A stretch of DNA of 63,738 nt, the filler included, from Collodictyon triciliatum (taxonomy: Eukaryota), in the NCBI GenBank assembly GCA_043381765.1. It is 17 parts of 17 records of this genome, joined end to end, with 100 filler letters (N's around TTAATTAATTAA, not from the genome) between each part and the next. Parts side by side here need not be neighbours in the genome. Positions count along the whole stretch, not along the records: positions 42,040 to 45,756 come from JBHJMP010006970.1; positions 45,857 to 49,567 come from JBHJMP010006971.1; 15 more parts are not named here. One strand, 5' to 3'. The position numbers were made by a program, and so were the translations under genes. The notes below the pieces were generated by a model that was given only the letters and a program-made list of their open reading frames with translations, was not told the DNA's origin and made no database searches. Shown one piece after another: positions 43,315-46,423 of the stretch. Positions within the stretch are counted from its first letter, which is position 1. The number at the start of each line of letters is the position of its first letter.

Positions 43315-44965
43315 TACGCTTTAAAAACAGTTGGAATAGTTTCACAAGAAAGACCCGCAAGATTTAAAAAAACCAGATACGAGTAAAGACATGATGACTT
43401 TTTATCTATGATTTTCGATTCCTTTTGTCCCGAGAACACTTTCTGTTGGTTGGATTGTCTCATGTATTACCGTACTTGGCGAAGCAAATGTTAACATCTT
43501 ATCATAATAACATTAAGGAGCATTTTGTAAAGAGGTTACTGCGCTTTACAAATCAAACAGTTCCTAAAGATGAGAATATTACGGAAGCTATTCAAAAGGC
43601 AAAGTTACGAAAGATAAGAAAAGCCATCTTCGAGAATCTTGAAATACCGGAACAATATAAAGAATGGGCTACAACGCATCTGAATCGTATCATTCCCAGC
43701 GATATTGTAAATGGTATCGAATATGACGTCAAAGTCAATCCAAACAAGTACACTCCATGTTTGATTCACATGAATCGCATTTATGAGGACATTAGAGCCA
43801 AACTGTTTCAATCAATCTCTATAAGGACTAACAATATGCCATGTCACATAACTCTAGATACTGCATGTTTGGTAGATATATTATTATTATCTAGTGGAAA
43901 AACATTATTACTGAAGAATATATCAGGATGCAAAGAGACCATATGAATTGAGTTCTTTGAAACGAAGAAGAGAGTCTTTCATCAAAGAGACTACAATTTT
44001 CTATACATGATACAAACAGACAGCTTGGCGGTGTCATCATTGTTATTTCAAAAGAAAGGTATTTCAAATTCAAAATCCAAATATAACCAAAAAACCAGGA
44101 ACATATAGATGAACTTTCCGAAGAGCAGGTATCTTCATTAGCGAAAATAACAATAGTTTGAGTGGACGCAGGCAAGTTTAATTTTGTTTACATGGTGGAT
44201 GAGACGGTAAGAAATTACATTACACCGCACATCAAAGAGGACATGATAGCAAATCTCTTAAAAATCACAAAATTCTCTTGCACGAAAAGAAAAAAAGAGT
44301 ACAATGTCCCAGGGATATACATGGCAATACGTTTACAAAGTTATATTTCTTTTGGTGCCTGGACTTTTGAAGAGAATAAGCTGTTTGAGACATCGAGAGT
44401 ATCTTTAATCGATTTAGAGACAGAACTGAGTAAACATAATTCATGCGCGGTCGATTATGATAAATTTCGAAAATATGTATCTATGAAATCAAGATACCAG
44501 ATAAAATTATCCAGATTTTATGAACCAGTAACTTTTCGAAAGATGAGATGGAGACAGTCTGTTAATACAAAAAGAAGTGAACAGTTGTTTATGGACCGAA
44601 TCGAAAAGACATTTGGCAAGGATGTTGTACTGGCGTATGGAGATTGGAGCAGAAAATGTCAGATGAACCATTTTATGGCAACAATCGGAAGGGGATCACG
44701 AAAAATACTATCCAAACGTTTTGAGACAGTAAGTGTAGATGAATTCAGAGCCTCCAAGATGTATTGCAACGGCGAAAAAGAACTGGAATATATGACTGAA
44801 AGGAAATTCAAAAAAAAAGTGCATAGATGTCTCATATGTAAAGAATGAAATTGCTCAGAAAGCAAACAAAGTGTATTCTTGACAAGGGACTTTAAACAGC
44901 GCTAATAATATACTTAAAGTTCTTTTAATCCTTCAAAATATTCATAACCTTCCTTTAAAAAATAG
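43054..44965 (+). pseudogene. Fanzor1 (TnpB-like RuvC nuclease) pseudogene, copy B
   Basis: MKKRKR..KTSLKSIVK, YLAKQMLTSYHNNIKEHFVKRLLRF, YDVKVNPNKY, ITLDT, MIQTD, VDAGK, YGDWSRKCQMNHFM, VDEFRASK, RCLICKE, TRD..SANNIL. Roughly 600 codons, with several stops and frameshifts and a ~40-nt poly(T) at 43273-43313. Confidence 0.9.
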
Positions 44966-45078
44966 GCAGTTGGGTCTTTCCTGGCAGCCTTAACCACTGC
45001 ACAACCTCTGTGAAACAAGTGGTGAGACCTTGGATACTAGTGGAACAGGTTAACGAATCGAAAGATGGTATACTCCTT
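44965..45078 (+). ncRNA. Putative Fanzor omegaRNA scaffold, copy B
   Basis: GGCAGTTGGG/CCTGGCAGCC stem, ACCACT..CACA-ACCTC-TGTG..AGTGGT stem, and a terminal ATC-GAAA-GAT hairpin. Homology to copy A ends at ...CCTT (45078). Confidence 0.65.
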
Positions 45079-46423
45079 ATTGAAAATGCATATGTGACCT
45101 ACTTAGACTGCGTCGCATGCGTCTATTCTGAATCCGAAGATGCTCTTTCTCATCATCAGCCAGTCCATAAGCAGCACAAAGAAATGAAAACATTCCTTCC
45201 TGCATTTCTTTACCCCAAACTGTTAATATCTATCGTATATTATCCAAATATCTACCGAGCGATTGACAAGAGCACACACCAACCCTCTGCAGTGTTTACC
45301 AAGGAGTAGCTTATTGCTAGGCATTTCCTGAAAATCTGCTGCAGAAAGGGAGATACTCGACTGAAAAAAAACCATTTCATTCTACTCAAACGACATGACC
45401 GAGTGATATTGAAAGCAGGGGGTGCGACAGGATGGATTTATTAGTTCTCCTGACCCGACAAAAAAGTATCTCCACGACTACTACCCCATGCCCGACCCAA
45501 GCGGTTGTAAAGCATCCACGTCGCTAGTCCGGAGCAAGTTATCGCCTCTTTTCCGAAGATGAACCGCTCTTTTGTAACCAGTGGGACTTTGCCTTTGTCT
45601 CCGGTACCAATGCAAAAAGTGTGGCATCTTTGTTTGTATTGCCCAAAAAGCACATATGTCTTGTGCCAAAGGCCTTCGGTCGTTGCCACCTATTTCCCTT
45701 TCTGTATTCGTTCGTGATCGTAACGTAGAAATCAAACAAAAACAAAAACAAAAAAANNNNNNNNNNNNNNNNNNNNNNNNNNNNNNNNNNNNNNNNNNNN
45801 TTAATTAATTAANNNNNNNNNNNNNNNNNNNNNNNNNNNNNNNNNNNNNNNNNNNNTTTTTTATGGTCTCAAGTATGTACAGCCGAGATCATTCAAATAC
45901 TTTCGTTACGAATCATTTTGCAAGAGCAGAAAAAAAGTCCCTGTGATAAAAAAAAACCCTCCAAACCCACCTGGCCACGTATCGAAGATAAGCGATCTGC
46001 GTGCGAACCAGTCGCGGTTGGGTGATACAATCCTTTGTTCTATTCAGAAAGCAATATAATAATGAAAGTTGTTTTAGGAATAGGAAACACAATCCATCAG
46101 GATACGCAGAAGACTCCCAATAAAACACATCGGCTCAGAAAAGCGGCGCTCACCCTAACGCTTCCAGCCGACCTGATCATCATTCCGTTCGCGCTGCGGC
46201 TTGTCTGATTCAGAGAAGGAACAGAGCAGACATACACAAAAGCGGAATATAATGATATAAACATCTAAATCACCTATATATTCACTTTTAATCAGATTGA
46301 CTAGTAAAAATGAATGTTATATATTATTCTAATACACGAGTTTTAGTTCCAATAAACATCTTATATTTTCTGTAACAAAAGTTAAGCTGCATCCAAATTG
46401 GAACGATTATAAGGAATTTTCAG

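What the first reader, a model, noticed from the sequence alone, without database searches (positions are those of the whole stretch)
44965..45100. Conserved, structured omegaRNA-like scaffold with a sharp end that defines candidate guides
Seen: ~115 nt after the stop codon are conserved in both copies and fold into three or four stems. Copy A has GGCUGUCGGG/CCUGGCAGCC and ACCAAUC-UUCC-GAUUGGU; copy B has the same first stem with one mismatch and AUC-GAAA-GAU. The middle stem stays paired despite sequence change (A: UCACCA/UGGUGA; B: ACCACU/AGUGGU), while loops differ. Homology stops after ...TAC(C/T)CCTT, followed by unrelated flanks (A: CTAATATGGAAATAAAG; B: ATTGAAAATGCATATG). Known: Fanzor/TnpB omegaRNAs come from the element right end and use flanking DNA as guide. 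Inference: 45078 and 19717 mark the right end, and the flanks are the guides.
Basis: partly seen in the sequence, partly recalled or inferred. Interest (0 to 1): 0.8.

Follow-up and report, generated by a model that had tools for sequence, protein, structure and literature searches.

The report
Decayed Fanzor guide-RNA tail, two copies
The flagged stretch is the tail of a dead copy of a Fanzor1 jumping gene (a eukaryotic RNA-guided DNA cutter) and very probably a relic of its folded guide-RNA scaffold: a further example of a published design, not a new one.

Summary
The window is a chain of unplaced ~3.7-kb contigs. Two of them carry ~2.8-kb copies, about 86-87% alike, of a Fanzor1-type element (B 42288-45078 +, A 22701-19717 -). 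Both nuclease genes are broken.

Homology stops after TAC(C/T)CCTT, and copy A's tail folds far better than shuffles (z -4.98). Copy B's does not (z +0.17). The two copies show no compensatory change, and the tail is less conserved than the coding part (81.5% against 87-89%).

The omegaRNA reading is supported indirectly. A covariance model was built only from 11 metagenomic Fanzor1 relatives (21 pairs, 14 with compensatory changes). Its best match in the whole window is copy A's tail (19.7 bits, E 0.013, all pairs standard). Unused relatives score 20.6-27.9 bits at the same place.

Not settled:
- the exact right end (CCTT, or 4 to about 19 bases further);
- the left end, TAM and transposon type;
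- any expression.

This is a new member of a known kind, of low to moderate interest.

The parts
42288..45078 (+). Copy B of the Fanzor1-type element. The left limit lies in a (CTTTTT)n microsatellite and is not sharp.
   Evidence: blastn and MAFFT against copy A
43054..44965 (+). Copy B Fanzor1 pseudogene. It is read in three frames. TGA at 44846-44848 replaces a zinc-finger Cys codon, and two further Cys positions read Y and G.
   Evidence: tblastn with P0002; ORF list; alignments; P0176
44963..45078 (+). Copy B tail, a decayed scaffold. Stem 1 is 44965-44989 with an A.A mismatch at 44968. The two-part stem 2 is about 44991-45026. The hairpin remnant AUC-GAAA-GAU is 45057-45066.
   Evidence: R2 match at 44960-45028 scores only 8.4 bits, E 4.8; the family majority at 44968, 44992 and 45052 equals the copy A state
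45079..45100 (+). Copy B flank and candidate guide, valid only if the element ends at 45078.
   Evidence: Homology to copy A ends here. One contig of run X1 is identical to 45105.
19717..22701 (-). Copy A of the element. Its contig ends inside the left microsatellite.
19833..21860 (-). Copy A Fanzor1 pseudogene. It is read in three frames. The start codon position reads Thr, and an in-frame TGA at 20037-20039 sits at a zinc-finger Cys position.
19809..19833 (-). Copy A stem 1 (GGCUGUCGGG / CCUGGCAGCC). The model extends it to 11 pairs, which would reach 19808-19834. This stretch is coding in the intact relative.
   Evidence: P0176 C-terminus
19771..19807 (-). Copy A two-part stem 2: UCACC/GGUGA around CACA/UGUG, with an A-rich 3' bulge AAAAAAGUA.
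   Evidence: R2 alignment with no non-standard pair; same design in relatives
19717..19765 (-). Copy A stem 3 (19765-19749), the 7-bp hairpin ACCAAUC-UUCC-GAUUGGU (19743-19726) and the end UUACCCCUU (19725-19717).
   Evidence: MFE fold; sequence. No homology to relatives was shown for this part.
19695..19716 (-). Copy A flank CTAATATGGAAATAAAG..., either the candidate guide or the last bases of the element.
   Evidence: likeness to the X2 loose end

Best explanation
The stretch is the 3'-terminal module of a decayed Fanzor1 element (Fanzor1 is the eukaryotic TnpB-like RNA-guided nuclease). It is most likely the relic of that element's omegaRNA scaffold.

Shown here:
- The upstream gene is a Fanzor1 relative, broken in both copies.
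- The first ~70 nt of the tail (an 11-bp stem 1 and a two-part stem 2 with an A-rich bulge) lie at the same distance behind the zinc finger as a covarying RNA structure of related intact Fanzor1 genes, and they fold the same way.
- In the closest intact relative, stem 1 is still inside the reading frame.
- Homology between the two copies stops at CCTT.

Inferred from published Fanzor1 systems, not shown here:
- An intact family member transcribes this region.
- The scaffold binds the nuclease, and the transcript runs some 14-21 nt into flanking DNA, which serves as the guide.
- The complex cuts matching DNA next to a TAM, such as an empty site, which favours keeping or copying the element.

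In this window the nuclease genes are dead. Copy A keeps a foldable scaffold and copy B does not. At most, copy A could act as a 'ghost' guide donor for an intact nuclease encoded elsewhere.
For: Protein:
- The 228-aa ORF matches solved PpFz1 (E 5.5e-6), SpuFz1 (5e-5) and GtFz1 (0.039).
- 1399 relatives score E <= 0.001 among 1.84 billion representatives.
- An intact 648-aa relative, P0176, is 57% identical over the whole ORF.
- The whole ~630-aa gene is traceable in both copies.

RNA in relatives:
- 58 of 80 metagenomic loci carry a conserved terminal motif.
- The core two-helix element has all 12 pairs changed on both sides, with 96.3% of cells paired against 82.3% in shuffles.
- In 11 closer relatives, 14 of 21 pairs carry compensatory changes.

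Link to the window:
- Model R2 was built without window sequence. Its top match in 63,738 bases, both strands, filters off, is copy A 19838-19768 (-): 19.7 bits, E 0.013, full model, no non-standard pair.
- With copy A added, 93.7% of cells are paired against 74.0% in shuffles, 16 of 21 pairs change on both sides, and 0 of 500 shuffles reach this. Slid controls give 33-48%.
- Specificity: in 342,591 bases of 69 loci not used for the model, 61 of 63 matches lie at the expected place behind the gene and 2 lie before a second terminal motif, scoring 20.6-27.9 bits.

Other support:
- Copy A folds at z -4.98.
- The family majority at 44968 and 44992 restores pairs that copy B has lost.
- Literature passages read: SpuFz1 has a 75-nt scaffold plus a 14-15-nt variable extension, and the GtFz1 omegaRNA overlaps 17 codons (PMC10432273). 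fRNAs abut the right end (PMC10530073). Scaffolds are 75-150 nt (PMC11423790).
Against: - Model R1, from 44 relatives and dominated by an AT-rich subgroup, did not find either tail at E <= 10.
- A nucleotide profile of the closer relatives stops at the RuvC-III codons (19907, 44895), so the tail shows no sequence homology.
- Copy B scores only 8.4 bits (E 4.8, 7th match) and folds like shuffled sequence.
- The two copies show no compensatory change, and the tail is less conserved than the coding parts.
- R2's E-values are rough because calibration was shortened, and alignment A8 is fitted to the model.
- The last ~50 nt (stems 3 and 4 and the end) have no shown counterpart in relatives, whose elements run on to a 30-nt terminal inverted repeat that this family lacks.
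- No Rfam family matches.
- Nothing here shows transcription or binding.
Confidence: 0.65

Rival explanations
1. The scaffold reading is right, but the right end is misplaced. The family's end lies 4 to about 19 bases beyond CCTT, and copy B is cut short or rearranged at 45078. The reader's 'guides' would then be wrong for A and meaningless for B.
For: Copy A's flank and the loose end of an independent X2 contig at 45078 match at 10 of the first 14 positions, then share AAG after a 2-base gap, then diverge. My estimate of the chance of 10 of 14 in AT-rich sequence is about 0.004.

Both flanks begin CTAR. In copy A's main frame this reads CCC TTC TAA, and TAG in X2.

Read laying used copy B as its reference. 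The fall of depth after 45079 in all 4 runs therefore shows only that B's flank is not shared.
Against: Only one outside flank was visible, because the loose-end table was cut (168 rows not shown). The likeness may reflect AT-rich target sites or a target preference. No inverted copy of the extended end exists in the window.
Confidence: 0.3
2. The tail was never a guide-RNA scaffold. It is decayed C-terminal coding sequence plus a transposon end, and its hairpins act at the DNA level. One version is a Helitron-type 3' end: a subterminal hairpin, then CTRR, inserted before T.
For: - Stem 1 is coding in P0176.
- In copy A the 7-bp hairpin is followed 9 bases later by CTAA and then T. The X2 contig has CTAG and then T.
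- The stem-4 loop is UUCC in A, GAAA in B and GGAA (the reverse complement of UUCC) in an X1 contig, as expected of a DNA palindrome that flips.
- The left part carries a microsatellite.
- Fanzor1 genes are known in Helitrons, which have 5'-TC and CTRR-3' ends and a 3' hairpin (passages of PMC3627910).
Against: - Compensatory, largely synonymous changes in stems 1 and 2 of the relatives argue for selection on a strand-specific fold inside the coding region.
- Copy B lacks CTRR.
- No 5'-TC after A is seen at B's left limit, and no Rep/helicase gene is present.
- A DNA-level role of the last hairpin and an omegaRNA role do not exclude each other.
Confidence: 0.12
3. The likeness of copy A's tail to the relatives' structure is a chance match of a GC-rich hairpin region to a permissive model.
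For: The match scores 19.7 bits with rough E-values (0.013, 0.023). The model has only 2.72 effective sequences. Copy B does not pass. R1 failed.
Against: It is the top match of 127 kb searched, and it falls on the right strand about 115 nt behind the zinc-finger codons, against 100-106 nt in relatives. No match of 20 bits or more fell outside a Fanzor right-end module in 342,591 bases of unused loci searched on both strands.
Confidence: 0.1

Closest known systems
Fanzor1 omegaRNA / fRNA at the transposon right end (SpuFz1, GtFz1 and PpFz1: Saito 2023 PMC10432273, Xu 2024 PMC11423790; Jiang 2023 PMC10530073)
   Same: A structured RNA module on the same strand at the 3' end of a Fanzor1 gene. 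It overlaps the last codons, as in GtFz1. Its length of ~115 nt lies within the published 75-150 nt. It ends where copies cease to be alike.
   Different: Both genes here are dead. No RNA, binding or TAM is shown. No terminal inverted repeat was found. The exact end is uncertain.
'Ghost' Spu-1 loci of Spizellomyces punctatus (Saito 2023, passages read)
   Same: Loci that keep a scaffold without a working nuclease gene.
   Different: Ghost loci lack the ORF and are well conserved between inverted repeats. Here the ORF is present but broken, and one scaffold has decayed.
   Same: Proteins are 39-50% identical to the window ORF. Stem 1 and the two-part stem lie at the same place.
   Different: Those elements run on for about 88 nt to a 30-nt inverted repeat, TTACACC...GGTGTAA, with T/A flanks. 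Their ORF covers the whole structure. The window family stops earlier and shows no such repeat.
Helitron-borne Fanzor1 (CRe-1, 2, 3 and CrFNuc of Chlamydomonas: PMC3627910, PMC10530073)
   Same: A 3' subterminal hairpin, with an fRNA in the 3' untranslated region.
   Different: Only copy A and one outside contig show CTRR. The 5' end was not testable.

Membership tests
Fanzor1 protein (TnpB-like RuvC nuclease) | Sequence homology to characterised Fanzor1 proteins | tested here: met
   PDB matches PpFz1 at 5.5e-6 and SpuFz1 at 5e-5. P0176 is 57% identical over 100% of the ORF. The whole gene is traced in both copies.
Fanzor1 protein (TnpB-like RuvC nuclease) | Intact motif D ... [TS][TS]xx-C4 zinc finger ... 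RD (Bao and Jurka 2013, abstract passage) | tested here: not met
   The RD (TRDF) motif and the DxG Asp are kept. The zinc finger is broken: against P0176's CCNC, B reads YCNG and has TGA in CLICKE*, and A has TGA at the first Cys. Both copies also have frame shifts. These are pseudogenes of a family member.
Fanzor1 omegaRNA | Same strand, at the 3' end of the ORF, reaching the element's right end | tested here: met
Fanzor1 omegaRNA | Conserved fold supported by covariation | tested here: inconclusive
   Within the family, 0 of 29 pairs are compensatory between the two copies. Across relatives the support is strong for stems 1 and 2, and copy A fits at 19.7 bits, E 0.013. Stems 3 and 4 have no comparative support.
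Fanzor1 omegaRNA | Conservation ends sharply and a copy-specific guide follows | tested here: inconclusive
   A and B diverge after CCTT. One outside contig changes at 45078, but its flank resembles A's.
Fanzor1 omegaRNA | Expressed small RNA that crosses the boundary and binds the nuclease | not testable with these tools
   No run on record as RNA holds the stretch. X3 and X7 are only guessed to be RNA, and contigs cannot show RNA ends.
Fanzor1 omegaRNA | TAM next to the left end that matches the empty site | not testable with these tools
   The left limit lies in a microsatellite, copy A's contig ends there, and no genome is held.
TIR (mariner-type) Fanzor1 element | Terminal inverted repeats at both ends | tested here: not met
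   No inverted copy of the right end was found with up to 3 mismatches or among inverted repeats. The left end may be missing from the contigs.
Helitron1 | 5'-TC, CTRR-3', a 3' subterminal hairpin, insertion between A and T | tested here: inconclusive
   Hairpin, CTAA and T in copy A; CTAG and T in one X2 contig; absent in B. The 5' end is not defined.
Any Rfam family | Match at the gathering score | tested here: not met
   0 matches in the window. Only chance-level matches appear in 19650-19950.

The most novel reading that the evidence does not exclude
This high-copy Fanzor1 family may have traded the mariner-type inverted repeat of its relatives for a different end. In that reading the ORF runs almost to the terminus, and a 7-bp subterminal hairpin followed by CTAR doubles as the last omegaRNA stem and as a Helitron-like 3' terminus. 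Dead copies with intact scaffolds, such as copy A, would still supply guides in trans to the few intact nucleases.
Probability: 0.12. Interest if true: 0.45.

Novelty: new member of a known kind. Interest (0 to 1): 0.3.

Why it matters
If the reading is right, the locus adds one more lineage to the known Fanzor1 design of nuclease gene, overlapping omegaRNA scaffold and flank as guide. It also shows that stem 1 and the two-part stem are shared between a eukaryote-borne family and a large clade of lake-metagenome elements.

That shared fold could help to find Fanzor scaffolds where sequence searches fail. The copies here are dead, so they have no direct use as editing tools. The intact relative P0176, paired with copy A's scaffold, would be the thing to test.

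Tried and rejected
- Earlier findings by place, sequence and relatives returned nothing.
- Pfam on six window ORFs gave no true family. Five further ORFs of the flanks and upstream region gave none.
- A 20-base tail word found 0 matches in viral contigs and 0 in genome contigs. P0176 found no relative in genome contigs or viral contigs.
- The tail-frame peptide (60 aa) and the C-terminal 67 aa found no homologues in the near length range.
- Sequencing runs: no RNA holder is listed. Only small shares (at most 0.14) appear, in metagenomes and in two runs guessed to be RNA. Parts of the stretch without cover say nothing.
- An alternative genetic code (table 6) does not open the frames, because the in-frame stops at issue are TGA. 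A 25-nt GTA...TAG intron that would open a frame through the tail was considered. It was dropped because P0176 supports the unspliced frame.
- blastn of the tail against the 80 loci matched only the coding part.
- Model R1 failed to find the tails.
- An 18-base antisense match to the relatives' motif upstream of the ORF was not pursued (nhmmer E 4.1).
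Full report
**Setting.** The window is not one stretch of chromosome. It is a chain of 17 pieces of about 3.7 kb, sorted by falling length and joined by N44-TTAATTAATTAA-N44 linkers. Copy B lies on piece 42040-45756 (+ strand) and copy A on piece 19109-22826 (- strand). Their distance and relative orientation therefore mean nothing. No whole genome is held.

**The two copies.**
- blastn and MAFFT show one ~2.8-kb unit, B 42288-45078 and A about 22701-19717. 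Its four pieces are 85.6-87.5% identical.
- On the right, homology stops after TAC(C/T)CCTT (45078, 19717) and the flanks are unrelated.
- On the left, it fades into a (CTTTTT)n microsatellite. Copy A's contig ends inside that microsatellite, so the left end is undefined.

**The gene.**
- The 228-aa ORF 44162-44848 matches the solved Fanzor1 proteins PpFz1 (E 5.5e-6), SpuFz1 (5e-5) and GtFz1 (0.039).
- It has 1399 relatives at E <= 0.001 among 1.84 billion representatives.
- tblastn with the 634-aa relative P0002 traces the whole gene in both copies, but across three frames.
- Copy B has TGA where A has a zinc-finger Cys codon. Copy A has TGA at another Cys position, and its start position reads Thr.
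- An alternative code does not rescue the frames.
- Both copies are pseudogenes.
- The closest intact relative is P0176 (648 aa, 57% identical over the whole ORF).

**The 'stop codon'.** P0176 ends ...LFKKQAVGYSSTALTVTHKRMRM. Copy A's main frame reads ...FSKK*AVGSFLAAFTTTQSL*. Stem 1 (AVGSFLAA) was coding sequence in the common ancestor, and the ancestral stop lay inside stem 2. This resembles GtFz1, whose omegaRNA overlaps 17 codons (PMC10432273, passage read).

**Fold and conservation in the window.**
- Copy A's tail folds at -45.0 kcal/mol (z -4.98, 0 of 200 shuffles as good). Copy B's folds at -27.8 (z +0.17, 107 of 200).
- In a sliding scan of 120-nt windows, A's tail windows rank 2nd to 4th of 91. 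The best is a left-end window, 22520-22401. B's tail is not among its best 8 of 89.
- RNAalifold on the two copies finds 0 of 29 pairs changed on both sides. The 'covarying' middle stem is a register shift around the same core.
- The tail is 81.5% identical (97 of 119 columns), and its last 48 bases only 73.5%. Neighbouring coding parts reach 87.3% and 88.6%. The two copies alone give no sign of selection on the tail.

**Other copies.**
- No run holds the whole stretch. Four runs with small shares were laid on 43320-45715 at 80% likeness or more.
- 11, 124, 271 and 331 contig pieces cover the element up to 45079, and depth is near zero beyond.
- This shows a multi-copy family. Because copy B was the reference, it shows only that B's flank is not shared.
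- The family majority at 44968 (A>T), 44992 (A>C), 45052 (A>T) and 44942, plus the inserted C after 44946, equals copy A's state. The first two restore pairs of stem 1 and stem 2, so B's mismatches are private decay.
- One X2 contig leaves B exactly at 45078 with CTAGTAAGATAATATAAAG.... This resembles A's flank CTAATATGGAAATAAAG (10 of the first 14 positions).
- The true end may therefore lie 4 to about 19 bases past CCTT. The loose-end table was cut, with 168 rows not shown.

**Relatives.**
- A scan of metagenome contigs with a protein alignment gave 588 confirmed stretches, of which 80 were kept (39-50% identity).
- 58 of the 80 carry, 150-400 bases behind the protein match, the motif GGCGTTT[TG]AAATG..AAGGTGTAA.
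- Several also carry an inverted copy 2.4-3.5 kb upstream. These are terminal inverted repeats with T/A flanks. They fit the mariner-type Fanzor1 elements of Bao and Jurka 2013 (PMC3627910, passages read) and earlier findings of this scan. I did not test that assignment further.
- Upstream of the repeat, largely inside the C-terminal codons, lies a folded region. Its two-helix core has all 12 pairs changed on both sides, with 96.3% of cells paired against 82.3% in shuffles and 44-60% in slid controls.
- In the 11 closer relatives there is also a long stem 1. There, 14 of 21 pairs carry compensatory changes.

**Link to the window.**
- Sequence searches fail. blastn matches only coding sequence, and an nhmmer profile stops at RuvC-III (19907, 44895).
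- Model R1, from 44 relatives, found neither tail.
- Model R2 was built from the 11 closer relatives only (74 positions, 21 pairs). Its best match in the whole window, filters off, is copy A 19838-19768 (-): 19.7 bits, E 0.013, full length, with no non-standard pair. It aligns stem 1, UCACC/GGUGA, CACA/UGUG and the A-rich bulge.
- Copy B is 7th, at 8.4 bits and E 4.8.
- The match starts about 115 nt behind the CLICKE codons, against 100-106 nt in relatives.
- With copy A added to the 11 relatives, 93.7% of cells pair against 74.0% in shuffles, and 16 of 21 pairs change on both sides (0 of 500 shuffles reach this). That alignment is fitted to the model.
- As a control, in 342,591 bases of 69 loci not used for R2, 61 of 63 matches (E <= 5) lie at the expected place. 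Two lie before a second terminal motif. All score 20.6-27.9 bits.
- Copy A thus scores like a distant true member.

**What stays open.**
- Stems 3 and 4 and the terminal UUACCCCUU have no shown counterpart in relatives.
- No inverted repeat of the right end is present.
- The 7-bp hairpin followed by CTAA and then T (CTAG and T in X2) would fit a Helitron-type 3' end (PMC3627910). Copy B lacks it, and the 5' end cannot be read.
- The hairpin loop is UUCC in A, GAAA in B and GGAA in one X1 contig.
- No Rfam family matches.
- Expression, binding, TAM and guide use are inferred only from the published systems.

**Verdict.** This is a real feature and a probable relic of a Fanzor1 omegaRNA scaffold. 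It is a new member of a known kind.

Noticed in passing
whole window; linkers at 3724-3823, 7547-7646 and so on, 16 in all: The window is a chain of unplaced ~3.7-kb contigs sorted by length and joined by N44-TTAATTAATTAA-N44. Most contig ends are microsatellites. Synteny across linkers is meaningless.
   Followed up: yes
window 15268-17619: A tandem array of 17 copies of a 135-nt unit, 84-91% alike.
   Followed up: no
window 22520-22401 (-), copy A left region: This is the best-folding 120-nt window of copy A (z -4.79, first of 91). B's counterpart, 42431-42550, reaches z -2.13. It may be a structured left-end module.
   Followed up: no
window 42989-42972 (-) and about 21932-21949 (+): About 70 nt upstream of the ORF start, both copies carry an 18-base antisense match (16 of 18) to the relatives' near-invariant TGGTCAATCAGTTGATTT motif. 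nhmmer gives E 4.1.
   Followed up: partly
window 42589-42888 (+) and 22083-22445 (-): An ORF of 99-120 aa is conserved between the copies upstream of the Fanzor gene on the same strand. It has no Pfam match.
   Followed up: partly
L022 391-559; L066 1646-1791; also L039 93-118 and 1089-1114: Metagenomic relatives carry extra right-end modules (an R2 match and/or a terminal motif) without a nuclease gene beside full elements. They resemble 'ghost' loci.
   Followed up: partly
L016-L020, L031 and similar loci, just behind the stop codon: In one subgroup of relatives the ORF stops (TAG), yet the conserved ..ATTGATTTTAC.. motif, which is coding (VDFT) in the other subgroup, follows out of frame after an inserted hairpin GUAGGUGAAAUUCCUAC. 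Conservation there is at the nucleotide level.
   Followed up: partly
window 45057-45066, 19743-19726, and an X1 contig at 45040: The loop of the last hairpin differs wholly between copies: UUCC, GAAA and GGAA. GGAA is the reverse complement of UUCC, as if the palindrome had flipped.
   Followed up: no
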